This document shows positions 27,716 through 52,373 of a stretch of DNA of 64,000 bases, in pieces (within the stretch, counting starts at the first letter, position 1; every line of letters begins with the position of its first letter). The notes beneath the pieces were generated by a model. That model saw only the letters and a list, made by a program, of their open reading frames with translations, made no database searches and was not told the origin of the DNA. Source of the stretch: Eledone cirrhosa. Taxonomy: Eukaryota. Made by a program: the position numbers and the translations under genes. The stretch is from assembly GCA_964016885.1 (NCBI GenBank), contig OZ024744.1:39804001-39868000 (forward strand), in the 5' to 3' direction.

Positions 27716-30700
27716 ATATACATGATATTAATATATATATCATCAGCAGCAGCAGCAGCTGTTTTCTATGTTTTTCCATGTTGGCAGGGGATGGGCAAGA
27801 CATTTTGGGGCAGCATTCTATATAACTATGTAAGTGTTGTAAAGAGGGTTTGGGGTGGGATAAGCATAGCTCATCTACCTCACGGGATGTTTCAATGTTC
27901 AATCTTGTCTAGAATGGGATATATCCATGTGTGCCCCAGCCACGAAACCTCTGACTAGAACATATAAATATATAAACCCAGTGCACATGGCAAGAACACG
28001 TCCTGTCTCCCCAGTTGACTGAAACCCAAGAGGCACACCATGTTGCTCCTCTTCCATTTACCTGATGTTACTTGCCCTTCTACTCTCAGACCTCATGATG
28101 TTACTGACCTTTATACTTTCAGCAAAGCTCCCAGCACCAGAGTAAGAACCTTTGTTATAATTCCAAACACCAACTTCATGAGAAAATTAATTATATTACT
28201 ATACCCCCTCCAAATGTTTTAAAACTTTTTTTTAAATTGTTAATAACTTTATTAATGACATAATATTTTTCTTTATTAATAATTAAAAATGGAAAAGGAA
28301 GGGAAAGGTATGGGCTCTAGGGTCACAGAAGAATGGGGGGGGGGGGGGTTCTAGGCCTAGGGCGCAGCAGTGTTTGGGGCTGCACCCAATGAATGAGACC
28401 GCAAAAGCATTCCCACGAAATTCATACACAGTGTCTTTTCATTAGAAATATACTAATGAAAGAGCTAAGAAAACTCAAACCATGAGCATACATCCATTAA
28501 ATTCTTTGATGCAGAAGAGTCTAAAGTTGCTTGATGGTTTTGTTTTCCACACTATACAAAGTAATTTCAAATACTGCAAGTCTCCAGTGTTTTCATCTTA
28601 TATAAAAATTTCAGTATTTACATTTGCTCCTTGATCCGGATTGACAAGATCCCAGTCCTCATTCACTTACCAAGTGGGGTGGAACTTGTCAGATCAGACC
28701 AAGGAAACAATGTATCTATTGGTCTTTCCACTTGCAAATACTATCAACCGTCTGCAGCTCCTGGCAGAAGAAGCAACTCAACATAAAGTGTCTTGATGAA
28801 GCTCATTTGCATAGAGAGCAAAAGCTGGTAGGCTCAAATTAATGGCATAGCATGATTTAGATGTGATTCAATATACAACTCCAGTGACATCTCAATCATA
28901 CTATGTCAGAGCACCACAAACTCTCATTAATTAGAGCCTGCCAACTTTTGCTCTGTATGAAAATAAGCTTCATCAGCCAATGTTCATAAGCATAAAAATT
29001 AAGCTCTTAGCTAATTTTTTTCTTATCATCCAAGAACAGTTAGCCTATCTGATGATGGTTAAGACTAGTGGTGGATTAATCACCTCTTTTAAAATTCATA
29101 GCGAGGCTACAAAAATGTTTATCTAAATGAACATCTTGTATGTGATTCATTAAACAACCCCAGTCACATCTCAATTACACTATGTCAGAGCATCACTACC
29201 TCTCACATACATATATATATATATAGGCTTAAAAATACAAAGAAAGCAAGAACAGGGGGAGGGAGTTTTCCTCATCAATTCTCTGCTGGGCATCTCAGAT
29301 ATTTCAACGCTTTAAAGACAATATATCTACCCCCAATAACTGGATAAGTTATTGGGAAAACGGAGGAGGGAGGGAAGGAAAATAGAAAGGAAAAGCGAAA
29401 AAAAGAGAAGAAAAGAGAAAAACACCGAAAAAAATAACAAACCGAAGAATGTGCGAGCAGCTTCAAGAAAGAAAATCCAACTCCATATTGGAGCTGAACA
29501 AAGTTCTAGAGCGTGTGGACGAATGAAAAACACATCTGATCCCAGTGAGTGTAAGCGAGAAAAGGAGTGCTAGAAGTTCAGGCGAGGGAAAGAATAAGGT
29601 GGCTGGCAGAGAGAGGGTGAGTGAAAGTGAAAGTGAAAGAAAGAGGGAGAAGAGTAGATAGTAACGAAATAGGTAGGTAGAGGGAGAGAGAAGAATGGTC
29701 ACAGCGAAACATGATAAAATATATGGAGAATAGGTAGGCTGTGTAGTTGCTAGTTAAGGTAGGCTTAAAAATAAGAAGCAAGAATGGAAGGGGTTTCCTC
29801 ATCAGTTGTTTACTGGGAGTCTCGGATATTTCAACGTTTTATCCGAGACCTCCAGTAGACAACTGATGAGGACCCCCCTCTACCGTTCTTGCTTTCTTCT
29901 TATTTTTAAGCCTACCTTAACTAGCAACTACACAGCCTGCCTATTCTCCATTTATATGTATATATCATTTAATGTCCATCTTCCACGCTATTGTATTATT
30001 ATTATTACCGAGGTTGACTTTGCCTTTCATCCTTACGGGGGTCGATAAAATAAAGTACCAGTAATGTACTGGGTAATTGCTGGCCTTGTGCCTAAAGTAG
30101 AAACAATTATTATTACCAAATTATCTACATGAAAGAATGGAGAGACAAACAAAGACAACAAGGAGCAAACATCGCATCATCCTCAGACATCAGCTATCAA
30201 ATTGGATTGGACAACTTGATTACAGATGGTATCAATAGTCCAATGTATGATTTTAGAAGACAAAAAATATATATATATATATGTGTGAGAGAGAGAGAGA
30301 AGAGAAGGATAATTACTTCATCCAAATGATATTCACTGGCAACACATAAATATTCCTTCTTCAGCTGTCCACAGTAGCTTAATACATTTAATACAGTCTG
30401 TGCTATTTCTTCCAAGGGTGGCCTTCATTTTCAAAAGTGCCCTCAGGAAATCCTTAACTCTGGCTCTATCAAGTTACATGAATCAAAGATACCATACTGG
30501 AAATGGCCAGAATGGAAATATGGAGCTCATTTGGGCATAACTTAACTCATCCGCTGCTAACACCATAAAGAGGCTGGCCTGATGTAATTTTCCATCTGAC
30601 TTCCACTGCCCAAGACATTATACCACATGTTATCCTGATCTAAAAATCATTTCATGCAACAGCAATAAAACTAGAGAAATTACTGTGTGAAGTGATTTTG

Positions 30701-32317: not shown

Positions 32318-34205
32318 GTATATACATATATGGATGTTCCTGGTGTATAAGGGTTCAACATTCTTCTCAGTTCATTTTTTATGGTTATACCATAATGACA
32401 GGATTTTGAGAGAAGGATGGAAGGTTTGATTGGATCTTGGTCTTAAATCTTAGATCACAAAGGTGGATCAGACAAGATTTGGACCAGCTAGGGCTTCAAA
32501 ATGATGACATATATATATCATTATTAATGTTGTTTTCTCTGCTAGAGAGAGTTGTGTGTTGTGACAGACCTGTCAGTATGCAAATGAAGTTACAGACCTC
32601 AAGGTAGGCTGGGGACCTGACATGATTCCGTGCTCTACTAAGTTCATTTTGTGGCACCAGTAATGTCTTTGACACAACTGAAATCTCCGACTCATTGCTT
32701 GACAAATTTTCTTAAGCTAGAAAACCTATCACCAACGACTTTACAGAGTGTAGTGGGTGTGTTTATGATGTATATCACCAACACTAGGGAGGTTCATGTG
32801 TCTATGACACAACTTAAGTCTTATCAACTCTTTGTGGAAAGTTTTCTATGGCTGGATACCCTACCTATCACCAACCACTTTACAGAGTGCACTGGGTGCA
32901 TTGATCATGCAGATCACCAACAGTAGAGAGGCTGTCATATCTATGATGGCACCACTATATATCTAATATGAAACAATAGTTGACCACATAAAATGTCAGC
33001 AGTTTATATCTTGTCACTACAGTTTAGTGTCCATCTTGTTTCCTCATAACTTTATTTTAAAACATTGCAGAGAAACATTTTAGATGGCATAGATTACAAT
33101 TATCATCATTTAATGCCCACTTTGCCTGCTATCAAGGGTTGGATGGGGCTACATAGACCAAGTCAGTATTGCAGTGGGGCTAATGACCTCCCAGACAGAC
33201 CAAATAGTCTGGATCCCACTTACACATGGTCATATCGAGTGTAGAGAAGTCATTGTGTCTTTTGACACAAACTGAAGAATCCTCCTAGATTAATTTTTTT
33301 TAAAGTATTTTTATTGACTCTTAACTTGTAACTGATTATGATTACTTAGAAATGAAAAAAGAAACTTGCCTTGATATATATTTCTGTTTGTTAACATGTT
33401 CATTACTTTTGATCCATATTTGTAATAGTAAAAATAAAAAACGAAATGAAATTAAGCGAAATTTACATCTCACACCTATGCAGGTTTAGCTGGTCTCATA
33501 CACTGCATTTCATAAGAGGATTCATAGATCTTATTAATGATAGGGCGCTCCAGTTCTATCATGAAAAGCAATGTGAAATGCAGTGTTTTGATCAAGAATG
33601 CAACAGGAATTGAACCAATGACTTTATAACTGTGAGTTGAACAGCCATGTGCCTTCTCATTGAAGGCCATTTTTCTCCTGAAATGTTCATAAACTGAAAC
33701 TATTTTTCCCATACAAAATGTTGAGAGAGAGACTGTTTGAAAGACAGATAGATTTCACCATAGTAGCCAACTACACAGCAAATGATGCTTTCCTGCCGAT
33801 GCTCCCAGCTTGCATGTTCATTACTTGAGACACCATTCATTACACGAGACATTTAATGATTGAAAAAATGGTTCATGAAATTATTTGTTCATGAACTGAG
33901 GTTCCACTGCATTTGAAGTAGATTAAATTTAAACTCAAACATTTTTCATCCTGCCTTTCCATTTCATGTTGATAAATAATAATCAGGATAATGTCACATA
34001 TTTTCTACAGGAATGCTATGTCATTTCAACAACTATGAAAAAAATAAAAATCTCATAAAAAACATTAGGGAAGTTATGAGGAAACAAGGTCATGAGTTGG
34101 GTCACTAAACTGTAGTTCTACCCATATATAAAAACAATGATAACATTTTTTTTTTAAAATAAATTTTCTTAACACATACACAATTAAATTATGTATTTAC
34201 ATTTA

Positions 34206-34414
34206 TTAATCTTTTTTCACAGACTCATTACTTGAATTTTGTTTTGAATTTAATTCAAATAAATTTGATAAAGTTTCTTTTTTTCTCTCATAATGTTGCA
34301 TAAGGTCATCATAATCTTCTTTTACAAAATCAAATACAGATTTCTTCACGCCTTTAGGCTGGGGTTTGGAGAAACCAGTATCAAACAGTCGACCTGATCC
34401 AAGCAGGAAAAAAG
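34206..34414 (-). CDS. Last coding exon of the DMAC1/DUF4536-like gene
   Basis: Acceptor TTTTCTTTCTTACAG, phase-compatible with the donor at 43037. The joined reading LSF-A-FFLLGSGRLFDTGFSK...SVKKD* completes a second TM helix ending LGxxRL. The frame is open for 209 nt, and AATAAA overlaps the stop. Total ~178 aa. Confidence 0.8.
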
Positions 34415-34513
34415 CTGTAAGAAAGAAAAGAATAATAATGAAATAATAAAAAATTTGTTTGCTCTACATGGCTGAATACAATAAATGTAATCTGAGTTTT
34501 TTGAATATTAATA

Positions 34514-34693
34514 ATTGTTTCTACTTTTGGCACAAGGCCAGCAATTATTCAATGTATTACTGGTACTTTATTTTATCGACCCCGTAAGGATGAAAGGCAA
34601 AGTTAACCTCGGCAGGATTTGAACTCAGAATGGCAAGGGCCGTAACTATGTGTCAAAGCATGGCGTCCAACCCTCTACCAATACTGCCAATCC
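34514..34693 (-). mobile_element. Second-family SINE inserted near the last acceptor of the DMAC1-like gene
   Basis: Core motif on the minus strand. The empty site is preserved in the inverted duplicate at 35167-35287. Confidence 0.85.
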
Positions 34694-34901
34694 AACATTC
34701 GATTCGTTTGCAATTATGCAAACAAGCCTCATTTTTAAAGCCATGTCAATAGAATGAACCCTTCATTCTTGCTCTTGTGTTGGCATGTAAATAGAACTGC
34801 AGACACTAATGTTTCTGGGTATTACCCTTCATCAGTACAGCTCACTGTTCACCTGCCAACTGTCAGAACTAGTGAAAATATATGCTATTTTCTAAAATAT
34901 A

Positions 34902-35021
34902 CAGTGATTGATCGGCCTGATTTGCATATTAGCAGACTGGCTGATCAGTCAGATTTGCATATTAGCAGATCCACTGATCAGCCAGATTTGCATATCAGCA
35001 GACTGGCCAGTCAGTTTCCTG
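34902..35021. repeat. 33-bp tandem repeat (x3), possibly a MITE
   Basis: Unit CTGATCAGCCAGATTTGCATATTAGCAGACTGG, bounded by TA|CAG...CTG|TA. Confidence 0.6.
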
Positions 35022-35339
35022 TATACGAGCGATAAATGGGCGGCTTTGCCACATTCAAATAAAAAAAAAATTTCTCTCTACATGGCTGAATACAATAAAT
35101 GTAATCTGAGTTTTTCGAATATTAATAATAACATTCAATTCGTTTGTAATTATGTTTGCAATTGTGCCAACACAAGAGCCCGAATGAAGGGTTCATTCTA
35201 CTGACATTACTTTAAAAATGAGGCTTGTTTGCATAATTGCAAACGAATTGAATGTTATTAATATTCGAAAAACTCAGATTACATTTAGTGAAATAATAAA
35301 TTTACTAAAAAGATGGAAAAATGTTCAAGGACTTACTAT

Positions 35340-35810
35340 TTCTATTTATAATAAAGGGATTTCATTTGCTAGTAAGGAGTAGATTGTATGATATCCGAGT
35401 ATGTGGTGCAACGTTAGCATGATAATGAGATGTGAGCCTTGAAGACAGAGGATGTATGATATAAAGGCTAGAAAGAAATGAGGCTAGCATACTCTGTTGG
35501 ATGTATAATTTTAGTGTACATGAACAACAAAGCACAGAGGAGGTGAGAGAAAAACTGCATATAAGAGAAATCAGATATAGTGTGCAAGAAAGAAGGTTGC
35601 GTTGTTACAGACATACAATAAATGTATGCATAATGACAATTTTGTAAAGACGTGCCAGGAGTTCCAAGTGGAAGGGGGTCATAAAAGAGGAAGACCAAGG
35701 ATGGTTTTTGGTAGAAGTGGTGAAAGATGATCTCAGGATATTGAATCTTGGAAAGAAAATTAAGGAAAGAGATAAAGTCCAGAAAAACAGACGTAAAAAT
35801 GATGAATACT
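35340..35810 (+). mobile_element. Highly decayed RTE RT C-terminal fragment
   Basis: Recognisable remnants of the HGSETW, RRLRW and GRPR-encoding segments. Confidence 0.55.
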
Positions 35811-36629
35811 AATTATGATTATCATGGTCCCTCTTGCTAGTTTATAGATTCATCCTGATTATTGGATTCTACAGATTTTGACTCAAATTACATAGATTTG
35901 TACTAATCTCTAGTTTTTATAGCATTATTAACAACTCTTGTTGACATATTTATAATGACAGAAACTACCAACGATTTTCAAATAATTTTGAAAACAATCA
36001 AGAATTTGGAAGGATTTAGTAATATTTCTTTCTTATTATTTATTAGTCTGGTCTTTAGAGCATAACTTAACAAAAATTCTTACATAAAATTAGAGTGAAA
36101 GGTTTTTTTAAATAAATATAAGTTAAGGTCCGAAACACTCGCTTGAGGGACATTTCTTTTCTGAAGACCTGCTTTCCAGCTCCTGAGAGTTTCTTACCAC
36201 TAAAATGAAAGGTTTTTTTAATAAATATAAACACTAGAGGTGATTTCAAGCAGTTTGGTATCAAAAGAGTTAATCATTTTCTCTCTCTTATTGAATAAGA
36301 AACAAATCTTCCCCAGCTTGAAAAGACCACATGGAGCCTGCATAACTAACCTCTGCTTAGCAGGGAAAATAGTTTAAAAAACACTAGTGCTGTAATCATT
36401 TCAGTTAAAGAGATGATTTTCAGTCAAAATGCCAGAGGTCATCCAGATAATAAACTTTTAGTCAACTGATCTTATCTTTAGAACATATATTTACAATATT
36501 TACATCAACATTGTTTTGATTAGTTTTCATTTCTGTCTCTTATCAAGCATCTTAATTCTGGATATATGGGCTAGTGGTCATAGCATGTTCAGGAGTGAAT
36601 TTTTTTGACAATCAGATATTAGGCTCTGG

Positions 36630-36827
36630 TGAGGATCGGCTGAAAAGTTCATAGGCTGACTATGAAGGAGTGATGCTAGAGCTGTGAAATCTTGCATGCA
36701 TTAATTTCAACTCTTCTTATTAATAACTGCATTGTTTCTTTCCAGGGACTATGTTGAAAAATAAACCTCTTTTGGTTATACCATGAGAGTATCTCGGTCA
36801 GCCGATGAACTTTTCAGTCAACCCTCA
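36630..36827. mobile_element. Mariner-like MITE
   Basis: ~31-bp TIRs TGAGGATCGGCTGAAAAGTTCATAGGCTGAC and GTCAGCCGATGAACTTTTCAGTCAACCCTCA, followed by TA. Confidence 0.8.
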
Positions 36828-37589
36828 TAGTTTGAATCCAATATGAAATTATGCACATATCCATTAATCTGTCCTCAAGTTTATCACCACGACCTGGCCC
36901 ATTGGAGCTTTAGTTATGTCCACGCTGTTGCCAGTATTCCAACTGGATCTCCAAGTTAAGGATAACTTTCTCTTTTATACTTACCACCAATCTCAGAGAT
37001 CCCACAAAAATGTCATGAGTACAGCCCCTCCTTCTTGATCTAAGTTATTACAAAATTTTCAAAATTCACCATATGACATGTTAGATAAAATGTGTATTTG
37101 TGTTTGTGTGTTTCTGAGTTTATATCAGCAACTTAATGGTTAAACAAAAAGAGATCAATAAACATGTACCAGACTTGAAAAAATGAACTACTAAACCCCT
37201 TCATGGCAGTGTCCCAGCATAACTGCAGTCTAATGACTGAAACCAGAAAAACAAAAGTAAAAGAAAAGACTTAAAAATTATTTCAATTTTTGTTGTTGTT
37301 GTTTTTAGATGGCTAATCTGTCTGCTTTTCAATGACCAAAAAATTTTCAAAGAAACACCTTCTGGATGAAAAATATATATTTTTAGTGGGAGCTAACATT
37401 TAAAGTAGTGAGTAAAAAAAATATTAATCAATTAAAATGATTCCCAATAATAAAAAGTAAAATCATAATGATTTTTCTCGTCAAAAACAAGGGTGATAAC
37501 TCTAGAATTCAAATTGATTCAAAATTGAATAGAAACATGTAGTGGAGTCGGGGCGAGGGGGATATAATCTTTGGTATGTAGTGATAACT

Positions 37590-37626
37590 CGAGACATGTT
37601 TCAGTCATATTTGAACTCCTCAGTAA
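37590..37626 (-). ncRNA. Degenerate minimal hammerhead motif
   Basis: CTGAGGA-GTTCAAATATGACT-GAAA-CATG-TC, with a palindromic ACATGT helix III. Stems I and II are imperfect. Confidence 0.4.
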
Positions 37627-38343
37627 AACATAGTGTGATTTCTATTTCCCACACCTTAGAACGAGTGTCATTTGCAAAAACATTTACTGTTTAGGCTATT
37701 TAAAATAACAGGCATCGAATAAAAAGGATGCCTTTTGCATGGAAAACAGTTAATGCACCTATTTATAATGATTATAAGGTATCATAAATGCAAAAGAACT
37801 TCCCTTATTTATTTAGTTACTCAAGATTGCTGTTTTGTAGTTTAGCACGAGATCAACGTAGATTGAGCACACCCAGCAGTGATCACCTTCTCTGTGTTTA
37901 ACCCATTTGTTACTGGTTCAACAATACAAAAATGTTTATATCTAAGTGTCTATATTTATCTAAAAACCTTTCATAATAATTTTACATAAGAACCATTGAT
38001 AAGTTATATTCCAAACAACAGATAAATAATGAGAAATTTAGTTACATATAACTCTTCAAAGTCATCTACTCCTATCGGTTTATTTTGCCATGAGATGCTA
38101 CAGGCCATGATGGCTACCTACGAAGTCATCTACTCTCTTCCTCTCTCTTACACTATTATTAGTGTTGTTGTATTTATCATTTAGCTGTCTCTACAAAGTC
38201 ATCTACTCCTATCGGTTTATTTTGCCAGGAGATGCTACAGGCCATGACGGCGACCCCCTCTCTCTCTATGAGAGCTACCTTCTCTCTATCTATCTCTAAG
38301 CCACCTATTACATCCCTTTCCCTCTCACCCATTCCTTCCTCAC

Positions 38344-41300
38344 TCATCTTGAAGTTCTTGAAGAGATGAGACACACTTGATTCTGAAAGGCTAAAATGAA
38401 TCACTAGAGCTGCTAATCCACGTTCCAGCCATCCATCCATACAAATCATTCAGGTATCCCTCTATTTCCCAATTGCAAATATTCCGCTCACACAATTATT
38501 GCTGTATTTATCATTTCACTAGCTTCCACAACACATTTATTTTTACCCTCATTTTCTCTCCCATGCTGCCTCTCTACGAAGTCATCTACTCTCTTCCTCT
38601 CTCTTACACTATTATTAGTGTTGTTTTATTTATCAGTTTGCTTTCTCTTCAAAGTCATCTATTCCTATCGGTTTATTTTGCCATGAGATGCTACAGGCCA
38701 TGATGGCTACCTACCTCACAATTTCCCTCCCGTCCACCATACCTATTCGACCAATCAAACCTCAGCATGTCCCCCTCACCCATTACCAACCCCAACAAAG
38801 CCTGCCATTTCTACTACTACCTACCTCTCTCCTCACTCGTCCCAGCCCCAACACACCCTGCCATTATTACCACCACCACTGTTCTTCTAGCCCTGAATTT
38901 TCCTACCGTTATGTATGGATGAGCTGAGAATAAATGGAGCAACCCCGAATTAATAAATGAAAATGAATATGAATCCGCAAGCTACCAAACACCCATGTGA
39001 AGTTTCAATTCAGAGACAGGAAGCACACGCACACCCCTGCAAAAGCCGACCCTTCCCCACGAATGTTGACAAATGCCCAAAACTCTGAGTTGGTACCAGC
39101 AATGTAAGCACAATGAAAGGAAGAGCAGGAGAAATAGTAGAGATGCTAGAGTGAAAGGAAATTGATGTATGCTGTGTGCAAGAGACTAGATGGAGAGGAG
39201 AGTCTGCTAGAGTCCTTGTAGGAAAAAGTCAGTGCTACAAATTTTTCTGGGTGGGAAATGATGATGGGATGGGTGGTGTAGGTATATTACTAGCTGACAA
39301 GTGGGTAGATAAAGTAATCTCAGTGAACAGGGTAAATGCAAGAATCATTGAAGTCAGACTAGTCCTGAATAAGACAATTACCACAATAATATCAGTTTTC
39401 ACACCCCAATCAGAGTTGTCAGACAAACTTAAGGATAGGTTTTACAAGTCCCTAATGCACACTACTGCTCTAACAAACGATAATGACTTCCTAATCATCG
39501 CAGGAGATTTTAAGGGACACGTAGGTAAACACCGTGACGGCTTCAATAGAGTCCATGGAGGTTGGCACAAGAAATGAAGAAGGATTAAGACTTCTAGAAT
39601 TCTGCGACGCCAATGACATGTCGATATGTAACACACACTTCAAAAAACCCGACAACCACCTGATCACCTATAGATGAGGGGAGCATTCTAGTCAGATAGA
39701 TTTTATCCTCATCAGAGGACGTGACAGATGGACGGTCGTAAACACAAAAGCCTTCCCTAGTGAGGAATGTACCTCCCAACATAGCTTAGTTGTCAGCGAC
39801 CTCATGGACAGAACTAGACAAACCTGGAAACAGAGGCCAACCTGGAGAAGAAAGATCTGGAAGCTGAAAGACCCCTCAGCCAGTAACAGATTTAAAGATA
39901 TTTTACTCAACGCCTACGACAGTAAAGAAGAACAGATAGAGACATTCAATATAGAAGAGGACTGGCAGTTCCTAAAAAATAACTTACTAAAAGCAATGGA
40001 TGAGATCTGTGGCTGGAGTAAGACCACAAGCAGGAGGAGAGTGACTTGGTGGTGGAACAATAAGGTAGATGAGACAGTTAAGGCCAAGAGACAGGCATGG
40101 AAAGAATGGAAGAATGGGGGAAGCAGGGTACATTACATAGAGACCAGGAGGGAAGCTAGGCGACAAGTATACTTAGCTAGAAGGGAAGTAGACGATAGAA
40201 AACTCAAGCATATTTTGCAACGCGAGGACCAGAAACAGGAGTGTTCAAGATTGCGAGGCAGTGTGTCAGAGAGAATTGTGATGTCATTGGAGAGAAGTGT
40301 ATCCAGAATGATAAAGCTGAGCTTGCCCTCACAAGTGCTGAGAAGAAAGATGCATGGAAGAGCCATTATGATAGATTACTAAATGAAGAGAATGCATGGG
40401 AAGAAGAGACCCTACTCCAAGTAGACCCTATAGAGGGGCCAGCAGTACAAGTCAGCAGCAGCATAGTAAGTAAGGCAATCAAAGATATGAAGATGGGGAA
40501 GGTAACCGGTCTATCAGGTATAGCTGCCGAGATGCTGAAGGCATCTTGGTCGGTAGGTTACACTATAACCACACGTATTGTTAACCAAGTAATACTAGAA
40601 GGTGTCATACCAAAGGATTGGTGCAGTAGCATCATTGTCAACTGCTACAAAGGTAAAGGCGATGCACTAGATAGAGGAAACTATAGAGGTATAAAGCTGA
40701 TAGACCAGGTCATGGAAGTAACAGAAAGAGTTATAGCACAGTTGAGTAGGGACCGGGTGAAACTAGATGAGATGCAATTTCGGTTTGTACCAGGAAGAGG
40801 CACCACTGATGCCCTCTTCCTTGTGAGGCAGTTACAGGAAAAGTACCTAGCCAAAAGTAAGCCACTCTAACTGGCATTCGTCGATCTCGAGAAAGCCTTT
40901 GTCAGAGTTCCACGTGCTATAATCTGGTGGGCTCTTAGAAAACTGTACAAGCCATGTATAGGGGAGCAGTCAGCCAAGTTAGGATTAGCAATGAGTATAG
41001 CGAGGAATTTAGCGTACAGGTCGGTGTCCACCAGGGCTCTGTTCTTAGCCCTCTCCTGTTCATCATAGTCCTGCAGGCAATAATGGAGGAGTTTAAGACC
41101 GGATGCCCATGGGAACTCCTGTATGCAAATGACCTCGCACTTATAGCTGAATCTATGGTAGAACTAGAGAAGAAATTCCAAACTTGGAAGCAGGGACTAG
41201 AAAGAAAGGGTCTCAAAGTCAACCTGACAAAGACTAAGGTCCTTGTAAGTAGACGAGAAAACAGAACCCAGATCCCCTCAGAGAAATGGCCTTGCTCAGT

Positions 41301-42365
41301 ATGTAGGAAAGGTGTAGGTAGGAACTCCATTCTCTGCCCCAAATGCAAACAATGGGTACACAAGAGATGCAGCAGGATCTCAGGAAGCTTAATTAAGAAT
41401 CTAGGCTTCACATGTAGCAGCTGTGCTGGGACAGCAAGCAGCAAACAGCCACAGGAAACAAGTACCACCAATCTCTGGGAAGGCTCTGTAGAAACAGTAG
41501 ACATCTTCTGCTACCTAGGTGACCGAATTAGCAGCGGAGGTGGGTGTTCAGAAAGTACAATAACTAGGGTAAGAACGGGATGGAAGAAGTTCAGAGAGCT
41601 ACTGCCACTGCTAGCAGCAAAAGGCTTTTCCTTCAAAATGAAAGGCAGAAGGGATGATGCGTGTATCCGAACAGCAATGTTACATGGTAGTGAGACCTGG
41701 GCACTGAAGGTGGAAGACTTACGTATATTAGAAAGAAACGAAGCCTGCATGCTCCGATGGATGTGTAATAGTAATATACGTGAACGGCAAAGCATAAATG
41801 AATTGAGAGAGAGACTGAGCATAAGAGGAATCAAATGCTGTGTGCAGGAGAGGCGGTTGCATTGGTATGGACATGTGATGCGTTTGAAGGATGACAGCTG
41901 CATAAAAAGGTGCAGAGCACTAGAAGTCAATGGAAACCGCGGAGTGGGGAGACCCAAGAAGACCTGGGATGAGGTGATAAAAGCCGACCTTACCCAATTA
42001 CACCTCTCCAAGGCGATGACACACAACCGTGACCTCTGGCATCACGCAGTAATACAGAGTACCCAACCTCCCATGGGTACAAGCTGAAGCATATAGACAA
42101 TATGCCCCCACACCCCTCCCACTGCAAAAAAGCACCCAGCCCACACTGTAAAGTGGACGTGTAGGCGCCACGGAAAAAGCACCCAGCACTCACTGTAAAT
42201 GAGGTTGGTGTTAGGAAGGGCATCCAGCTGTAGAAATCAAGCCAGAATCAGTTCCTGTATGAGCAAGACAAGGTCAGCCGACCAGACACTGCCCACAACA
42301 GGACAACCCTTCTAACCCATGCTAGCATGGAAGAACGGACGTAAAACGGTGATGTTGATGATGAT
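38344..42365 (+). mobile_element. Near full-length RTE-clade LINE (APE endonuclease + RT), disrupted
   Basis: APE motifs (VQETRW, GVGIL, IAGDF, QIDFIL) and RT motifs (GNYRGIKL, QFRFVPGRGTTDA, GVHQGSVLSPLLF, LLYAND, FCYLG), with a (GAT)n tail. Several stops and frameshifts. 38055-38343 holds rearranged duplicates of its 5' region. Confidence 0.95.
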
Positions 42366-43037
42366 AACCACTATTTATATATATACATACACATAGCCAA
42401 ACAGTAAGAGAAAAGGAAAGAGGATATACAAATATTGGTGGCTAAAGCTAGAAAACTAGCTCTCCTGCTACAAGATTGGAATCTGTGGCTAAAGAATAAG
42501 AAGCTACAACAACATTAATGGTGGAGAAAGAAAAGAAAAAAATACTAAATGCCCCAAGATTCTTCATTATTTTCATATTTGAAAATCAGTTTTCCATTTG
42601 AGAGTAAAAGGTATAGGAAAGAAGAGTGCTCTACGTAAAGTACAGAGCTATTTAATTATGTAATAACACAATACAATTATTCCATTTACCAAAAGTTTCA
42701 CAAAGACAGGCGACGTCAACAGAGGTGTCCGAAGTCGTTCATCAGAAAGGAAAATTTTCCTTTCTGTCTTCGTGAAACCTTTGGTAAATGGAATAATTGT
42801 ATTGTGTTGTTTATTACATAATTAAATATATATATAACTAAGCCATGAGGAAATATGAAAATGACAGGGTGAGAGGAGTGATGGAAATAAATATGAAGGA
42901 AATAAAATCCAGGATGAGGGTGTGGGTGCAGATGATAGGGCGAAACGGAGAAACTTATTATGGAGCCGGTAAGGCTAAACCCTTGCTTTAGCAGAGAAAT
43001 TGGCTTTAAAATGCTTGGTGTATACATGCATACTTAC

Positions 43038-43365
43038 CGAAGCTCAAAGGTGCAACAATGCCAATCAAGTGCAATTTCTTTCCTTTTAATTCTTTAGGTG
43101 GATTATTCAGCTGGGTTAGAAGAAATATGCTGATACCAAAACAAACTGAACAGCCTATATATTTGCAGGAAGCACAATCATCTTCACGAACCCGAAACGC
43201 ATTTTCCAACCAAGGATATCTTTCAGCAAGGAATGAAGGAACCGGGGTAGGGCTTGGAATTTTCTCCTCTATTGTATTGTCATCACTGCTGGAATTTGAA
43301 GTTGAAAATGTCACCTGTCCATCAGTGTTATGCTGAAGACCCAAAAACTTTTTTATAACATCCAT
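43038..43365 (-). CDS. First coding exon of a DMAC1/TMEM261 (DUF4536)-like small membrane protein
   Basis: ATG at 43365 lies 15 nt inside an exon opened by a TTTACAG acceptor (AG at 43382-43381). Encodes ...EDDCASCKYIGCSVCFGISIFLL..., a DCxSC motif followed by a hydrophobic helix as in DUF4536 proteins. Ends at a phase-1 donor G|GTAAGT. The family is recognised from memory, not from a search. Confidence 0.8.
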
Positions 43366-45168
43366 TGAGAATATTTCTCTCTGTAAATAGATTTTAAAAC
43401 AATTAATGTAAAAAATATAAATAGCAATATGAGAACAAGTGCTTTAAGGCCACTGTTTCTGGTAAAGAATGAGTTTGTCTTGCAGGCTCCATGTCAGACT
43501 TCATTCACATCATGTGATCCTTCTTAAGGCAATGTTTTATGACTGGAGACCCTTTTAGTCAACTCTTATGACATACAAGGATACTAAACTAGGTGCATAA
43601 AGCAAAAAAATAAAATAAACTATTAGAAGCACATGGGTTCTACATATAAGCACTCTCTCTTTCTGGATATATTTAAAATACGGTTACTCGTGAGAGGCTG
43701 GTGTAGGCAGCGAGAGGAAGCTATCGTTGATTAAATCGACAATGGTACTTGACTCTTTTATCAATTCATCTCTGAAGGACAAAAGGCAATGTTAATTTTG
43801 GTAGGAATTGAATTTAGAACGTGAATTTAGCTGTAACTAAATACCGCAAGCCGTTTTGTCAGACGCTCTAAGGAATTTATAACAGTGGCACAAAGCTACA
43901 ATTTTCGGGACACAGAAACACTTATATTGTCAATCTCGGTTGGACAAAGGCAAAAGGTGACATCGGTGGGATTTCAACGCAGAACGTGAGGTGTACACTC
44001 ATACACATACTAATAGATATTTGACAAGGTTAATGTTATTTCACTTCGTTTCTGCACTAATTCTAGAAAAAAAAACAAAAAAACTACGTTACCAAAATAA
44101 CAAATATAACTACTGCTACTGCAATTCCTAATATTGGTGCAAGGCTGACTACAAAAGTATACGAGAGAGTTATTACACTCAACTGAATCGACTTCAGAGC
44201 AAGCCGGCTACTGTATCGCTTTGACCTTCGAGGGATAACATCTGAAGTCGACTCCAGCAAGATTTGAAATTAGAACTTGAAAGTAAAACACTAAACAGCA
44301 TTAGCTTTAGCACTATTTCTGCCACTCAAGTTTTTTTGTTCTCTCTGCATATATATATATATATATTAATAAAAGGAATTCCAACTTTGTCTGATTTACT
44401 CGTTTTATTTACAATCCTTTAAAATTATAATGATATTATAATGAAATAGCATGGTAGAATATTAAATGTTCAGTGTTAAGTGAACAAGTACTTTCATGCT
44501 TTCGCAATCTCCAGGTTCATATTCTGTAGTGACATATTTATACTTATATATGGTTTATATATAATTATAAATATGGAGGGTAGTACTAAGCACTAGCCAA
44601 TTACCGGTAAGAGAAAAGGCTCAATGTAAATTATATATATATATAAATGCTAGTATGCACAAGTATCAGCTGTGCTAGGGCGAGAAATAAATTCTAATTT
44701 TATTTATATGTATATACACATACATAATGTGTACGTACGTACGTACGCCAGTGTACATTCACCTACGCAAACACGTTCCTAGAAGTTTATTAATGTCAAC
44801 AATAATCATCAGTTTGACCAGTCAATGTAAGGAGCTTTGATAGGGTCAAGCGTACCTGGAAACCCTCCGTAGTTGCTAAGGGTTTGCTTCAAGCAAAACT
44901 ATAATAACAAAATAATTCTTCCTTATACCACACACTAATATATTTAAAAAGGAAGGACACATTAGATATTGTAATCTTAGATACAATAAATAAATAAAAA
45001 GCGGACGGTCAGGGCGATGACATTCTTTTAATAAGAGATCTATTGTTTTGTTAAACCTAGGTTTAAATAACGTTTGTTTACATCTGAAGTAAATATTATA
45101 CGGCGACAATGGGAATGAAAATACTTTTCTCGGAAAAATGAACAAAAAAAAACTAGCAAAATAATTAC

Positions 45169-45310
45169 CTTTACAGACTGTATGATTTGTTCATTTCATT
45201 ATAAGTAAGCTAACAGTATATATTTTGATAAAATTATATACATACTATCTATTTTTATTTACCAAGCAGTCACCTCTAGCACATGGCTAAACAACATAAC
45301 CTTTCTGTGT
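45169..45310 (-). other. Possible non-coding first exon of the DMAC1-like gene
   Basis: The ATG exon begins with a splice acceptor, so an upstream exon is needed. An AG|GTAATT donor-like site lies at 45168 in non-repetitive sequence. The 5' boundary is a guess. Confidence 0.25.
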
Positions 45311-47011
45311 TCTACAAGAGTTATCTTTTGTGGCAAAATATGATCATGTTTGATTCCTCTCTATGTGTATCGAGAAAAGGACGACTAGATTTCGATCCTC
45401 ATTCGAAGCAATTTTCTTTCGTTAATTATCATGGGGAAAAATGGAATTGATTTTACGTCTATTATTCAACCCTCCCTATAAAATGTAAAACTTTTGTACG
45501 AAAATACCACTTTATATGCAGATAATTAAATTTCCGAAGTAAATTCCTGTAAGCCTTCTATATTGAGGTGAAAGAAAAATCAAATTCGATGTACCGATGG
45601 GGACATTGATAAATTTCCGGCGAATTAGTGTCTTCATGTATAGATAAGAACGAATGTGAATATACACTGGCGTTGGTGTACTTACTCACAAACATATCGG
45701 ATAAATAAATAAATGGGACGATCAAAACCATGACATTTTTTTTTTGTAAGAAAACTATTAAGTTATGGTTAAACCTGGGTTTAAACAAGAACAAAGTGAA
45801 AGGAAAAAAAAATTCCGATGTACCCTATGTTCTGATACATCAGTTAACTTACATATATGTTGCATTTTAATTTAATTTATTTCGTTGTATCACATCCGTG
45901 TCTATGCTTTCATTTTTGCAGGAATTTTAGTTTCACTTTAATGTGTTTTTGTTTGTTAGTTTTGATGAAGTTATTTATCATTTTAGGGATGTTTCGCTTT
46001 GGGTATAGCAAAATAATAGACAATAAAATGTAACGTGAAAGTAAAAAGCCTGATAATAAAATAAAATCGATTGAAACGTGCAAGTTTTATAAGAACATTA
46101 GGCAGGTTTTCTTGTGGAGGAGAGGAGGTGATTAATATCTAACTGTCTCGCTTTATTGGTGGGTGGCGCTTGGCAGTATTTAATAATGTACTTTTACACT
46201 ATGTTCAATTCCCAACAGGGACAATTATACCTTTCCTTCAGTGGCATGGTTGTGGACGAGAGAAAGGTCGTCCTCTCCGAACGGTAATTTAGGTGGAGAG
46301 ACATTACTTTTTGTCTATTGTTATTTTGGGAGGTTTGTTTGTTTTTTTAATTTGGAGAGCGAGTGAAAGTTGACAACTGGAAGACTACCAGGACAACACA
46401 ACTCTGTCACTTTTCTCTTCCCATCTGGGGTTAATAAATAAAATACACTTATTTGTTAATAGCTGTCTTCAGATTTTATGTTTTGAACATGAGAGAATCA
46501 GAATCTGCAGATTTGGAGTTATGGGGGCTTTAATTTCACGTGAACGGAAGAGGATTGGCGACATGACTTGCTTTTTCGACAGTGTGGGTGGTTCTCTTTC
46601 TCTTCGATCAACATTGACGCATCTGTGTGAGAGCTCTAGATAGACCGGTTGAAGCGTCTACAATGTTAAATGGGCAAAGAGTAAACAAGCTTTTTTGCTG
46701 ATCCTCTTCCGCTTACGTGACGTCACCGATCTACCACCACATCCGGCTATCCCCTCACCCCATAACCCCAAACAAAAAAGTTAATAAGAAATATCTAAAT
46801 CAGAAACAGATAAGGGTAAAAGTATTTAGAACTTCAAAGCTTTTTCTTTTTCGAATATAAATATATTTCGTTTGCACTTGAAGTGTATAGATATATTATG
46901 TTTGTATTTGTAATTACATTTTTACCTTTAATAAAAGAGATGTATATTTTATGGAATATAAACATATATAATCAACAAAATGAATTAACAATAACAATAA
47001 AAAGGAATCCC

Positions 47012-49466
47012 CTTATCCTCCACCCCCGAGGCCAGCGCCAAGCGTTTGCGTGACCAGGTAAACGCAAAGCTTATCATGGGTGATGTCTCGGTCGCAGTCA
47101 GAGTTTATTGCCTCAGAGGACACTGTCGTCCAACCCACCGAGGAGATCCTGGCTGCTCTGCGGCTCAAACACCCTGAGCCAGCCACTGATCTCAGACCCA
47201 TACCCCCACCTGCTCCTTGTGGGTACTGATGCAGATATCATGTCCGCCATCAGGTCCTTCCCAGCTAGCAGCTGCGGAGGTGTTGATGGTCTCCGACCAG
47301 GCCACCTCAAGGACTTGACATCCCCCCTCTCCGCTGAGGCCGGGCGCCGCCTTCTGAGTGCAATTGTGGCGCTCACCAATAGGCTCATTCATGGTGCCCT
47401 CGACCCTTACGCCCGAGGCCTCTTTTTTTCGGCCAGCCTCACCGCTCTCAGGAAGAAAGAGGGTGGCATACGCCCCATTGCTGTGGGCAATGTCTTCCGG
47501 AGGCTGGCTGCCAAGGTGATCTGCAAGTCCGTCACACACGAACTGGGTGAGGAGTTTAGTCCGGTGCAACTGGGTGTCGGCGTGTCCGGTGGCTGTGAGG
47601 GAGCCTCTCATGCAATCAGGCAGTTCTTCAGCAGTTGCCCATCGGTACCGGCATCTAGGGACTCCAGGCACCTCATTGTCAAGCTTGACATGAGGAATGC
47701 CTTTAACTCTTTACGCGGAGATCATCTGCTTGAGACCTGCCTCAGCCGAGCCCCCTCTGCCTACCCGCTGGCCTAGCTGTCATATGGAGCCCCGAGCATG
47801 CTCCTAGCTGCTGATACGGTCATACCCTCGGCTACTGGGGTCCAACAGGGCGACCCTTTGGGACCCCTCCTGTTCGCCCTTGGTATTGACCACATCGCCC
47901 GGAGTATCACGGCCCATCTCAACGTTTGGTATCTGGATGATGCTACGTTGGGCGGGCCCGTACGGACGGTCTGCCAAGACCTTCAATCGGTGATTCCTGC
48001 CCTGGCGGGAATCAGCCTCCAGGTCAACTCAGCCAAGTCGGAGGTGGTGAACGTCAGCCTCAATGCTGCGAGCTTTGCAGCCTCCGTCTTGGACGTGCGG
48101 TCCATTCTCCGCCAGGTTCAGGTGACCCCCAAAGAAGATGTCCTCATCCTCGGGTCACCGATCCACCCGCCGGCCATCCGCTCCACCATCAGGTCCAGGC
48201 TTCAACAGCTCCAGACTCTCACGAGCCGACTGGTCTTGATTGACGGCCACCCAGCTTTCTTTCTGCTGAGGAACTGCTTCGCCATGCTGAAGCTCCTCTA
48301 TACACTCCGCAGCGCTCCTTGCTACACCCAGACATCTCTCCTCGCTGACCTCGATACTTGTATCCGAGCAGCAGCCGAGGGGATATGCAACGTCAAGTTT
48401 GACGACATAAGGTGGCAACAGGCCACTTTACCAGTCAGGTATGGCGGCCTAGGCTTCCGGTCCCCGATCTCACTAGCTTTGCCGGCGTATCTTTCGTCGG
48501 TAACCTCGTGCCGCGTCCTCGTCAGAAGGGTTCTTCAAAACACAACAGAACCCTCTGTGTTCAGAGAACGTGAGGCCGCCTGTGAGACATGGGACCGGCT
48601 GGGACTTAGCCCAGTAGACGTCCCTCCTCCTTCTCCCCTGTTGACGTCAAGTCCCCCCAACGCACTTGGGATGCAATCCAGTGCAGCCTGGCCTCAGACA
48701 GGCTCACGCACCAGCTCGACCAGCACCGCCTTGCTTGTTTTCGTGCGGCCTCCAAACCCCACAGTGGTGCCTGGCTCCATGCTCTGCCCTCCTTCTCCAC
48801 TGGCACGCAGCTAGACAACCATCGCCTGCGAATCGGCGTTTCCCTGAGGCTCGGCCTCCGGATCTGCCAGCCACACCAATGTCGCTGCGATACCACCGTG
48901 AACTCTCTCGGCCTCCACCCGCTTTCCTGTCGCCACAGTGCCGGCCGCATTCCACGCCATACTGCCCTCAACGAGGTCATTAAGCATGACTTGGACGCTG
49001 CAGGCTTCCCTTCCCAGCACGAGCCGGTGGAGCTGGATCGAGGGGACGGCAAAAGACCATCTTCCCGTTCCGCGGTGGAAAACCCCTCGTCTGGGATGCC
49101 ACTTGCACTGACACTTTCTGCAGCCGCAACCTGGTGCAGTCTGTGACTGACCCAGGTTCTGCTGTATGTCGGGCTGAGGGTGACAAACTCCTCAAATACC
49201 GGTCGCTCTCCAACAGGTTTGCGGTCGTTCCCCTGGCAGTGGAAACTTCTGGTGTCCTCGGCCCCAGGGCTACCTCCATACTCACCACCATAGGCGCTGA
49301 GCTGGCCAGCCGTAGGTGTGAGCCCAGCGCGTCTCCCTTGCCGCCCTTCTCCATTCTGTCCGTCGGGGCTGTGGGTGGGCCCCATCGCGTACCAATACAT
49401 TAGTTAAATACCAATCTTTCATCTGATACAACACAATAAAGTCTGTAAATTCATAAAAAAAAAAAA
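47012..49466 (+). mobile_element. 5'-truncated CRE-clade (RT + restriction-like endonuclease) non-LTR retrotransposon, disrupted
   Basis: Motifs LRLKHP, GGIRPIAVGNVFRRL, QLGVG, KLDMRNAFNS, GVQQGDPLGPLLF, YLDD, GGLG, CxC..H..SC, RHxxLN, LVWDATC, KxxKY and PLAVETSG. AATAAA at 49435 followed by poly(A). In-frame TAG at 47774-47776 plus frameshifts. Confidence 0.88.
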
Positions 49467-49478
49467 GAAGATATGCAC

Positions 49479-52373
49479 TGTACTGACCTACATTCCGTGG
49501 GCTCACATACATTCTATGTGCGTGATTTGGCTCAGCTCAGCCAACCAGCGCCAGTAGAAGAGAATGTATCTCTACGCGCCCCGAGGGAAAAGTTCCCGCG
49601 TGGATTTGAAGAATCAGCCTCTCGCTTCCTCTCTGTGAAAAGGTAAACACCTAACTTTCTTTCGTCGTGAAATCACTAGCTAACATGAAACACAACAACT
49701 TAACCACGGCTTGGCAACACTTCAGCCAGTGGACCGTGTGTTCTGAAATCCTTAATTCATTGTTTCATCTCTCTTGGCATGTCAGCTATTCAGCTCTACT
49801 CAGCTCAATCTTTGTAAATAAATATGGTACATACAACCCAGTGTAATGTTATAATTGGTGACCCCGAGAAAAAAATAATAGGAACGGGTGTTGTGTGAAT
49901 ATGGAAAAAAGAAAGTTAGGTGTTTACCTTTTCACAGACAGGAAGCGAGAGGCTGATTCTTCAAATCCACGCGGGAACTTTTCCCTCAGGGCGCGTAGAG
50001 ATACATTCTATTCTACTGGCGCTGATTGGCTGAGCTGAGCCAAATCACGCACAGAGAATGTAAGTGAGCCTGCTCCACATGGATTTTTTCTCCGAAACTG
50101 TCTACAACGAAAAATATAAGTAATCCTTTTCTCAACAGCAAACAAACAAGACAAAATTTTGTTCTTCACCTAACGTGTTTACATCGTTTAAGTGTGTTTC
50201 ACTCACTGGATATATCCTTCGTTCTTCTCACAACGAACACTCAAAAAGACTTGGACTCCTATATTCTTATATTCAACATGTCAATTTTGATGAACATCAC
50301 AGCTCGCTTACTCATTCAACTAAGCCTTTTTCATTACTTTCACAAAAAAATTGAACTCCCGCCATATTTGTATACAAAGGGAATATAGCCTTTCCTTCTT
50401 TTTCACCATATTGTCACGTTCACACACAAATTTTTCAAAATGGCTGCCAACGATCTGTTCCACTATCATTTTCGCGCCATTTTCTCGCGCAAAAGAAATA
50501 TTTTTATTTATTCAACTTGACTTTAACCTTGTTTCGGCACGTGTGTGGGAGCACACATCTCAACTCACACGCCATAGATAATGTTTCTTGCCAAGGATTC
50601 TCCAGCCTTAAGCTATATTCTCCTATTTGCCGTTAAAAACTGCGCATTTATTCAGAATGCTTATTTCTATGGTCGTTGGCCTCTTGTCCCATCCAGGTCA
50701 ACGTGTTCTCAACATCGACCATCAACTTTGGCTGTTATTTCTAGCACTTTGCGCAACTCATTTTTTCTGGGAAACTTTTTACTGTGAATTGAAACAACTT
50801 CGAATAGAATATCACTCAGCGAGACAACAACAACACAGCTTCATCTTTGCTTTATCAACAACCAAAACCGGCAGAACAAAACACAGAATTTATTTTTGCA
50901 GTACTCTTCCTGTGAGAAAATCCCACCGCCTTCGGGGGTTGGAAATTTCACGTTGTACCACAGTCCAGAAACCACCTGCATACATTCTCTTGGGGACACA
51001 CTCTTTTTCCTGCTGTCATATGCTTACATACCTGTTAACTTTATTTTTGAACATTTGAACCTTTTTTAATAACTATGTTCGAGCACGTTTCTTTGCTCCT
51101 TTGACTTCTTCTTTTAAGTTGATTACATTGTATATATCACTGTATCATTTTCTTTATCATTGTATATATGACTGCACCCACACATTCTTTGCTGTATTAC
51201 ATGCCTGCATATGCACATATATTTCTTTGACACACACCAACATGTTGTTCTTAGTATATGATATTCAAACGTCGTAAAGTTCTGCGAGATCCCTTCCCAC
51301 CTGGTGGAGGTACCAAAACATGCTAGCGACTCATAGAGCTTAATTCACCTAGATTCAAACAGGCACCGCAACACAAGAACTGCTAATTGCAGCTGGATTC
51401 AAACAGCTTCGCATCTCGTTGCACACTCATCGTCCATAACAACCTCCATCTTGTTACCTTACCCGACTCACTGGGAAAACAACAAATGGAACTGGACTTG
51501 TCAGCATTTCCACCATTTCTGTGGATTCTCCGGAATTGTGGAATTTACACTGCAACTACTACCCACCTACAGATTCAACTTGCTTTTTTCTTTTCAAAGC
51601 AACCAGCCATTTTTTCCTGGCTGCCTAGCACTTTCGGCAATACATCTGGGAGGCCGACATTTTCTCGCCTACCCATCATCTTCTTGCCAGCACTGGTAAA
51701 CTACCATAATAGCTTCATCCTCAGCTACTGGTACAACACTTACCATTAACATTTAATGCAAGAACAGCAACTTCACCCATGTCAGACTTTATCCGTTTTC
51801 TGTTAGACCCTTGGTGGTCACGTATAAACTACAAAACAGCTAGTCATTTGACACAGCGGCTCAACACGGCCCTTAGCGCCTCATTTTTCTTCTTGCATGC
51901 ATCCTTCTGCACAATTATTTTTTCACTGATGTGCTTTCAGCATTTTTTCCTGCTGATTCAATAATCTGTATCGTCTTACGTCTAGAGGGGCAGTATTGTA
52001 GTGACTTACATTCCGCGGGCTCACATACATTCTCTGTGCGTGATTTGGCTCAGCTCAGCCAATCAGCGCCAGTAGAAGAGAATGTATCCCTACATGCCCC
52101 GAGGGGAAAGTTCCCGCGTGGATTTGAAGAATCAGCCTCTCGCTTCCTCTCTGTGAAAAGGTAAACACCTAACTTTCTTTCGTCGTGAAATCACTAGCCA
52201 ACATGTAACACAACAACTTAACCACGGCCTGGCAACACTTCAACCAGTGGACCGTGTCTTCTGAAATCCTTAATTCATTGTTTCATCTCTCTTGGCATGT
52301 CAGCTATTCATCCTCTACTCAGCTCAATCTTCGTAAATAAATATTGTACATACAACCCAGTGACACTTTTATA
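49479..52373 (+). mobile_element. Non-autonomous LTR retrotransposon (Gypsy-like signals)
   Basis: LTRs at 49479-49853 and 51997-52373 are highly similar. TSD GCAC at 49475-49478 and 52374-52377. PBS TGGTGACCCCGA at 49856 is complementary to the 3' end of tRNA-Trp. Purine tract AGAGGGG precedes the 3' LTR. No gag/pol recognised inside. Confidence 0.92.

What the first reader, a model, noticed from the sequence alone, without database searches (positions are those of the whole stretch)
46240..46772. Unannotated multi-domain foldback region (candidate structured ncRNA) upstream of the DMAC1-like gene
Seen: three consecutive self-complementary domains with no ORF and no second copy in the window. 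D1 (46254-46300) has hairpins GGACGA/TCGTCC and CTCTCC/GGAGAG. D2 (46354-46421) nests GAGAG/CTCTT, AGTGA/TCACT, AGTTG/CAACT and CTGG/CCAG. D3 (46512-46772) is a ~260-nt rod: outer TTTGGAGTTATGGGG/CCCCATAACCCCAAA, a 24-bp stem CACGTGAACGGAAGAGGATTGGCG/TGCTGATCCTCTTCCGCTTACGTG, then CTCTTT/AAAGAG and AACATTG-ACGC/GCGT-CAATGTT. Four of the five non-Watson-Crick positions in the 24-bp stem are G-U on the + strand, and CpGs are retained. The stem arms also carry E-box, CRE and ETS-like motifs (CACGTG, TGACGTCA, CGGAAG). Inference: a plus-strand structured RNA transcribed divergently from the gene's promoter, a symmetric bidirectional promoter, or an old foldback element. I could not match it to U snRNAs, SRP, 7SK, RNase P/MRP or telomerase RNA.
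Basis: partly seen in the sequence, partly recalled or inferred. Interest (0 to 1): 0.75.

Follow-up and report, generated by a model that had tools for sequence, protein, structure and literature searches.

The report
Mirror-image promoter pair, not structured RNA
The long fold-back sits at the front of an octopod gene and consists of two opposite-facing copies of a short promoter-like sequence that recurs across the genome, also in old retrotransposon end repeats, so it is likely the gene's on-switch rather than a new folded RNA.

Summary
The stems are real. D3's symmetry beats 2000 of 2000 shuffles, but it is the weakest of 21 such foldbacks in this window. D1 and D2 fold no better than 5-9% of random tiles. 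The plus-strand G-U bias vanishes over longer arms (5:4). CpG retention covers the whole 44-47 kb region. There is no Rfam match; 7SK, RNase P and MRP lie elsewhere; a telomerase template is absent. An RNA-run contig covers 45853-46654 and abuts a CT..AC splice joint to the coding exon. D1, D2 and D3's left arm therefore likely lie in the minus-strand first exon, which folds like shuffles (z -0.8). Both D3 arms carry an E-box/CRE+ETS module of fixed spacing (12 genome hits versus 3 controls). The module also sits, CpG-decayed, in an old ~305-nt TG...CA solo-LTR family. Best reading: the gene's promoter, made of a likely LTR-related module present twice in convergent orientation, with the rod as a by-product. 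One other locus has the same convergent pair. Orthologues, stranded RNA and start sites could not be tested.

The parts
46706..46772 (-). Right arm of D3: G-rich block, CCGGATGT (ETS-like), then CRE + ACGT + ETS module (46726-46706); predicted proximal promoter of the minus-strand gene
   Evidence: module recurs elsewhere; aligns to LTR-family copies, 0 of 200 shuffles; motif names are recalled
46674..46691 (-). Pyrimidine tract 15-32 nt downstream of the ETS site; predicted transcription start region (inferred)
   Evidence: Sequence; ETS about -31 and CREB-type about -45 in mouse promoters (PMC2249607, passages)
46512..46620 (+). Left arm of D3: second, shorter, inverted copy of the module (E-box + ETS at 46536-46550, CCAAT on - at 46558) that lacks the upstream ETS/CRE block
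   Evidence: (2 of 200 shuffles versus LTR copies)
45853..46654 (-). Stretch covered by one 802-nt RNA-run contig that begins at the splice donor; likely first exon/5' leader (12 upstream ATGs in an 817-nt leader)
   Evidence: (joint 43380-45853, CT..AC); fold z -0.80
46254..46300 (.). D1: two 6-bp hairpins, within the chance range
46354..46421 (.). D2: interrupted 68-nt hairpin, marginal
45980..46190 (.). Relic of an unrelated dispersed repeat inside the leader (best matches 71-85% over 45953-46104)
45169..45852 (-). Exon extension to a second splice donor
   Evidence: joint 43380-45169, CT..AC; 744-nt contig
43038..43380 (-). First coding exon (ATG at 43365) of the DMAC1-like gene
   Evidence: family assignment is a lead only (score 0.90, PF15055 on 47% of cluster members; no Pfam hit)
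34184..34414 (-). Last coding exon of the gene (extent as covered by the contig)
   Evidence: joint 34414-43038, CT..AC
44001..47000 (.). CpG-undepleted zone at the gene's 5' end

Best explanation
D3 consists of two opposite-facing copies of a short sequence module that recurs across this genome, and it is likely the promoter of the minus-strand DMAC1-like gene rather than an RNA structure. The right copy (G-rich block, ETS-like site, CRE, ETS, pyrimidine tract) points into the gene and is predicted to start transcription near 46690-46675. The left copy lies inside the likely first exon and points back, so it would act as extra downstream factor sites or as a weak antisense promoter. The module likely shares ancestry with the promoter part of an old LTR-retrotransposon family, and kept its CpGs here because the gene's 5' end is likely unmethylated. 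The inverted pair likely arose by a local foldback duplication. The rod is the by-product, and an mRNA starting near 46680 would carry only one arm of the long stems. D1 and D2 are likely chance hairpins in a repeat-patched leader. Shown: the symmetry, the module's recurrence, its presence in LTRs, the splice joints, the CpG profile. Inferred: promoter function, start site, LTR descent, duplication.
For: The 15-nt pattern written from the two arms has 12 genome hits (2 here) against 3 for the reversed control. In 7 of the 10 other loci the unsearched upstream letters are TGACR, as in the right arm. With the spacer free (1-12 nt), 10 of 14 hits have the same 4-nt spacer (control 5). One such locus (L040) belongs to a family with 46 matches (40 of 85 candidates scored; 69-86% identity). 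Three of 30 fetched copies show TG...CA ends, 305-310 nt and 5-bp target duplications. A fragment upstream of the module in L063 matches RT/RNase H/integrase proteins (10 hits), and L063 shares 262 nt with family member L072. The right arm aligns to 29 copies at mean 35.1 against 21.3 +- 1.0 (0 of 200). In 25 of 30 copies the module is recognisable, with a mean of 0.64 CpG against 3 here. The order ETS, then CREB-type, then GC-box upstream of the start matches mouse promoters (PMC2249607 passages). CT..AC joints show a minus-strand spliced RNA, and a contig covers 45853-46654. Minus-strand RNAs begun at 46690, 46683 or 46654 fold no better than shuffles (z -0.8 to +2.4). Only the two arms share GGAAGAGGAY (0 of 41 other loci). 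L046 has the same convergent pair about 760 nt apart.
Against: No start-site or promoter assay exists, and contigs are unstranded and cannot show a start. Similarity to the LTR family outside the core module is weak: right arm upstream 34 of 200 and downstream 98 of 200 shuffles, left arm upstream 135 of 200 and downstream 4 of 200. Convergent factor sites therefore remain possible. The arms are not each other's best match by total score (43.7, against left-L044 53.2 and right-L039 58.6), which weakens a simple duplication. Only 3 of 30 copies passed the terminus/TSD test. The L072 and L063 fragments had no integrase hit in Pfam or the PDB. ORF scans 10 kb downstream of 9 other module loci found no gene start (1 nuclear-receptor exon among 186 ORFs). 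The L050 module region has no BLAST-level relatives. 46240-46511 folds somewhat better on + (z -2.03, 2 of 60) than on -. A leader with 12 upstream ATGs suggests a nearer start may make most of the protein.
Confidence: 0.65

Rival explanations
1. D3 is a neutral, decayed foldback or inverted-end transposon relic that happens to lie near the gene's 5' end; the working start lies elsewhere, and the motifs survive only because the region escapes methylation.
For: Foldbacks are very common here (20 stronger loci in 64 kb). The leader holds another repeat relic. L046 shows a similar inverted pair with no gene found nearby. The leader has 12 upstream ATGs.
Against: The most intact copy points into a spliced gene, directly beside the stretch that the RNA contig covers. 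It keeps all 3 CpGs, against a mean of 0.64 in family copies. No multi-copy family covers the whole of D3.
Confidence: 0.17
2. The two modules are host-evolved factor-site clusters, not of retrotransposon descent, forming a symmetric two-way promoter; the LTR family resembles them by convergence or capture.
For: Flanking similarity to LTR copies is mostly at shuffle level. L041, L046 and L050 share the GGGRTTATG...ETS...module layout but score only 47-58 against the LTR family, and L050 has no BLAST relatives over this part.
Against: The fixed-spacing module is rare (12-14 exact hits in 3 Gb) and was not found at recognisable gene starts. No plus-strand partner gene was found in 96 ORFs over window 49.5-64 kb plus 20 kb beyond, only RT and PHD matches.
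Confidence: 0.1
3. A plus-strand structured non-coding RNA spanning D1-D3 exists, and the stems are kept by selection for pairing.
For: z -3.14 on +. D2 and 46240-46511 fold somewhat better on +. Nine of 11 arm mismatches are transitions. The arms share letters beyond the common module.
Against: No Rfam hit at E <= 1, and only unrelated low-score hits at E <= 10. 7SK, MRP and RNase P have proper genes elsewhere. No telomere template over 6 nt. G-U polarity is 5:4, and the inner rod folds better on -. The stem sequence is explained by a DNA module that occurs unpaired at 9 of 10 other loci.
Confidence: 0.08

Closest known systems
LTR-derived (exapted) host gene promoters (concept recalled; one search gave search listings only)
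   Same: A promoter module that also occurs in solo LTRs with TG...CA ends and 5-bp duplications sits at the 5' end of a host gene with its CpGs intact.
   Different: Only about 70 nt resembles the LTR family and no LTR termini or target duplication remain here. The module is present twice in convergent orientation. Function is untested.
ETS/CREB/GC-box housekeeping promoters (PMC2249607, passages read)
   Same: Order and rough spacing of ETS (about -31), CREB-type (about -45) and GC-rich boxes upstream of a predicted start, in a CpG-rich zone.
   Different: The data are from mouse. Binding by octopod factors is untested, and a mirror copy lies downstream.
Foldback/inverted-repeat elements, e.g. 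transposons whose inverted ends carry inward-facing promoters (Mutator-type; recalled)
   Same: Inverted arms with inward-pointing promoter motifs; a second locus (L046) has the same layout.
   Different: No multi-copy family, defined termini or target duplication was found for D3.
Metazoan telomerase RNA (PMC8480181, parts 1-3 of 7 read)
   Same: Size range and long stems; an AAACAAAAAAG tract follows the rod (its likeness to the human pseudoknot linker is recalled).
   Different: No template of 7 nt or more for TTAGGG on either strand, and no RF00024 match.

Membership tests
Telomerase RNA | Template of about 8-11 nt complementary to the telomere repeat (TTAGGG here) | tested here: not met
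   Longest match in 45300-47100 is 6 nt on either strand; the snail template is 8 nt (PMC8480181)
Telomerase RNA | Pseudoknot plus box H/ACA domain | tested here: inconclusive
   No RF00024 hit here or genome-wide, but the model is vertebrate; no pseudoknot prediction was run
7SK / RNase MRP / RNase P RNA | Match to the family covariance model | tested here: not met
   No hit at this locus; above-cut-off genes on C2, C2 and C24
Functional structured ncRNA (any) | Folding better than genomic background, with a strand preference | tested here: not met
Functional structured ncRNA (any) | Compensatory changes among orthologues | not testable with these tools
   No relative genome is held; one search gave one weak 36-aa match that was not followed up
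Functional structured ncRNA (any) | Discrete stranded transcript spanning both arms | not testable with these tools
   Only unstranded contigs of one study
MITE / multi-copy foldback transposon | Many dispersed full-length copies with terminal inverted repeats and target duplication | tested here: not met
   One full match and one 56-nt 84% match; the arm pattern has 12 hits versus 33 control; the search can miss old copies
Solo LTR (the dispersed family, not D3) | TG...CA ends, 4-6-bp target duplication, link to RT/integrase sequence | tested here: met
   3 of 30 copies have ends and a 5-bp duplication; linked Pol fragment
Solo LTR (D3 itself) | Full-length match with LTR termini and target duplication | tested here: not met
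   Only about 70 nt of the right arm aligns; flanks mostly at shuffle level
LTR-derived host promoter | Descent of the module from the LTR family | tested here: inconclusive
   Core 0 of 200 shuffles, flanks weak
LTR-derived host promoter | Transcription starts at the module and depends on it | not testable with these tools
   Needs CAGE, 5'-RACE or a reporter
Bidirectional promoter | Divergent partner gene or transcript | tested here: inconclusive
   No host gene among 96 plus-strand ORFs in 34 kb; the test misses short exons and ncRNAs

The most novel reading that the evidence does not exclude
Octopods have domesticated a retrotransposon promoter module as face-to-face pairs (here and at L046). 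The two copies fire towards each other, so sense and antisense starts overlap by about 110 nt. A longer isoform carrying both arms forms a double-stranded rod that ADAR could edit, tuning a mitochondrial assembly-factor-like gene.
Probability: 0.12. Interest if true: 0.55.

Novelty: new member of a known kind. Interest (0 to 1): 0.22.

Why it matters
As it stands this is modest. It removes a candidate ncRNA and names a testable promoter for an octopod gene, with a likely link to an old LTR family. It also warns that in this foldback-rich genome a z-score near -3 is background. If CAGE and orthologues confirm it, it would be a concrete case of a retrotransposon-related promoter serving a cephalopod host gene. 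One literature search (listing only) showed no such cephalopod case among 9 titles, which does not prove it is unreported.

Tried and rejected
Rfam scans: nothing credible. 7SK was considered for GGAUGU/GAUC-like words (recalled) and rejected, as the real gene is elsewhere. RNase MRP and P were rejected likewise. Telomerase RNA: no template; the supplement of PMC8480181 (1 file held) names no cephalopod; the genome's own telomerase RNA was not located. H/ACA, U3, SRP and pre-miRNA were compared by eye from recall and rejected; Rfam gave none. An snRNA-type upstream element was rejected: the module scores near background at the 7SK and RNase P loci and only 11.8 near MRP, and Rfam found no hit above its gathering score near 16 module loci. 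A Penelope-type palindrome (a lead from an earlier AI note) has no hammerhead match here. RNA runs: no RNA holder was listed; run X4 was taken as RNA only because it shows CT..AC joints. X4 has no contig over 46712-47000 and its contig stops at 46654 with no overhang. Contigs cannot show starts, and a hole proves nothing, so this is not counted as evidence. One T>C difference at 45614 in one contig cannot be told from an allele. Orthologue DNA: a metagenome scan gave one weak match (L038), not examined. The idea that D1 lies inside a MITE bounded by 45987 and 46350 was tested and not supported (right end 165 of 200 shuffles, D1 87 of 200). Searches of L046's second module and of L050's module found no family. 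Pfam and PDB did not name the Pol fragments. The scan's look-ups by sequence, by words and by nearby place returned nothing.

Full report
Setting. The window lies on contig C28 of a 3.0-Gb genome with TTAGGG telomeres. The neighbouring gene has homologues only in octopods among 4 candidates (62-69% identity). Its coding exons are 43380-43038 and 34414-34184 on the minus strand. 'DMAC1-like' rests on an ESM Atlas lead for the O. vulgaris homologue (score 0.90, PF15055 on 47% of cluster members); Pfam itself gave no hit.

Observation. The 533-nt region folds at z -3.14 on + and -1.87 on -, and D3's symmetry beats 2000 of 2000 shuffles. The right yardstick is the genome, though. Twenty other loci in this window have stronger inverted arms, and 28 of 266 tiles scanned fold at z <= -3 while the D3 tile scores -2.34. 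D1 and D2 are matched by 14 and 7 of 150 random tiles. The strand argument fails: the inner rod folds at z -3.3 on + and -4.3 on -, and over the longer arm pair and outer stem the wobble polarity is 5:4. CpG retention is a property of the whole 44-47 kb zone (o/e 0.80-1.15, against 0.20-0.56 in the gene body).

Known RNA families. Rfam gives nothing at E <= 1 and only unrelated low-score hits at E <= 10. 7SK, RNase MRP and RNase P have above-cut-off genes on other contigs. Telomerase RNA needs a template; the snail one is 8 nt (PMC8480181, parts 1-3 of 7 read). The best match here is 6 nt.

Transcription. Four runs of one study hold the stretch, none on record as RNA. Run X4 shows joints 43380-45853, 43380-45169 and 34414-43038, all CT..AC, that is, splicing on the minus strand. 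An 802-nt contig covers 45853-46654. D1, D2 and the left arm of D3 therefore likely lie in the first exon. This is inferred from adjacent unstranded contigs, so an overlapping plus-strand RNA is not excluded. The leader would be 817 nt with 12 upstream ATGs. It folds like its shuffles (z -0.80), as do versions started at 46690 or 46683. Part of it (about 45980-46190) is a relic of a dispersed repeat.

What the D3 arms are. A 15-nt pattern written from the two arms (E-box/ACGT, 4-nt spacer, ETS) hits 12 places, against 3 for the reversed control. At 7 of the 10 other places the unsearched upstream letters are TGACR, completing the CRE seen in the right arm. Several also have an upstream CCGGAWGT and a GGGRTTATG block like the outer stem. 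With the spacer left free, 10 of 14 hits keep 4 nt. So two of the 'wobble' positions are purines that also vary among unpaired copies, though the pattern allowed that variation. Locus L040 belongs to an old family (46 matches, a lower bound). Three of 30 fetched copies have TG...CA ends, 305-310 nt and 5-bp target duplications. A fragment upstream of the module in L063, which shares 262 nt with family member L072, matches RT/RNase H/integrase proteins. The family is thus the end repeat of an LTR retrotransposon. In 25 of 30 copies the module is recognisable but CpG-decayed (mean 0.64 CpG against 3 here). The right arm aligns to 29 copies far above shuffles (0 of 200) and the left arm weakly (2 of 200). 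Flanks alone are mostly at shuffle level, and D1 and D2 do not align. Descent from the LTR is therefore likely but not proven.

How it likely works. In mouse promoters ETS sites peak near -31, CREB-type near -45 and GC boxes near -62 (PMC2249607, passages). The right arm has this order and points into the gene, which predicts a start in the pyrimidine tract near 46690-46675. An mRNA from there would contain only the left arm of the long stems, so the rod could not form; only the weak inner hairpin could (z about -0.5). The left copy has lost the upstream ETS/CRE block and would supply downstream sites or weak antisense firing. On origin, only the two arms share GGAAGAGGAY (0 of 41 other loci) and the outer 15-mer is 14 of 15 identical, which favours a local foldback duplication. 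Against that, each arm scores higher against some other locus than against its partner. L046 carries the same convergent pair about 760 nt apart, 1 of 10 other exact-match loci (nine were scanned 10 kb downstream or 3 kb around). A small class of inverted-end elements is therefore also possible.

Results against this reading. No gene start was found downstream of nine other module loci, and no plus-strand partner gene here (282 ORFs of 55 aa or more, low-complexity ones dropped; hits were one nuclear-receptor exon, one RT and one PHD). This test is weak for short first exons. L050's and L046's modules have no BLAST-level family. The D1-D2 stretch folds slightly better on + (2 of 60 shuffles). 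Orthologues, stranded RNA and start sites were out of reach.

Literature. Searches were seen as listings only, apart from PMC8480181 (parts 1-3 and a supplement search), PMC10886601 (passages: solo LTRs with 4-6-bp duplications) and PMC2249607 (passages). Names of factor motifs (E-box, CRE, ETS, CCAAT, TCT) and the Mutator comparison are recalled.

Verdict. This is a real inverted repeat but most likely a promoter pair, probably retrotransposon-related. It is not a new structured RNA. Interest 0.22.

Noticed in passing
L046:1440-2330 (G000:C18:36.499-36.500 Mb): Two convergent copies of the same module about 760 nt apart (arm-versus-arm score 86) enclosing tandem units with (GT)n(GA)n; the second copy is followed by CTCTTTCC. 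Same layout as D3.
   Followed up: partly
L075-L104; window 27874-28084: Old ~305-310-nt solo-LTR family (TG...CA, 5-bp duplication in 3 of 30 copies) carrying tandem ETS/CRE modules; one decayed copy lies in this window.
   Followed up: partly
window 47008-49460: GC-rich, broken non-LTR retrotransposon-like element with a poly(A) tail on the + strand, about 240 nt from D3 (identified by eye); L039 has a related 3' end beside its module.
   Followed up: no
window centres 6580, 11910, 14070, 17720, 18880, 28880, 29830, 30670, 32150, 35230, 36760, 42760: Strong foldbacks, about one per 5 kb; the one at 42760 had very high contig depth in DNA runs, consistent with a multi-copy repeat.
   Followed up: no
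window 45783-45954 and 46009-46328: Further AT-rich inverted arm pairs; the first encloses the splice donor at 45852 (z about -2), and a second donor at 45169 is also used.
   Followed up: partly
L003 (C2:194684573-194684851), L036 (C2:309564179-309564430), L037 (C24:12936134-12936474): 7SK, RNase MRP and RNase P RNA genes of this octopod by Rfam; telomerase RNA was not found with the vertebrate model.
   Followed up: no
window 45614: T>C on + (A>G on the transcribed strand) in one X4 contig; allele or editing, undecidable here.
   Followed up: no
window 49475-49830, 49860-50070, 51995-52360: A ~350-nt repeat present twice directly and once partly inverted, upstream of the gene (seen by eye).
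   Followed up: no
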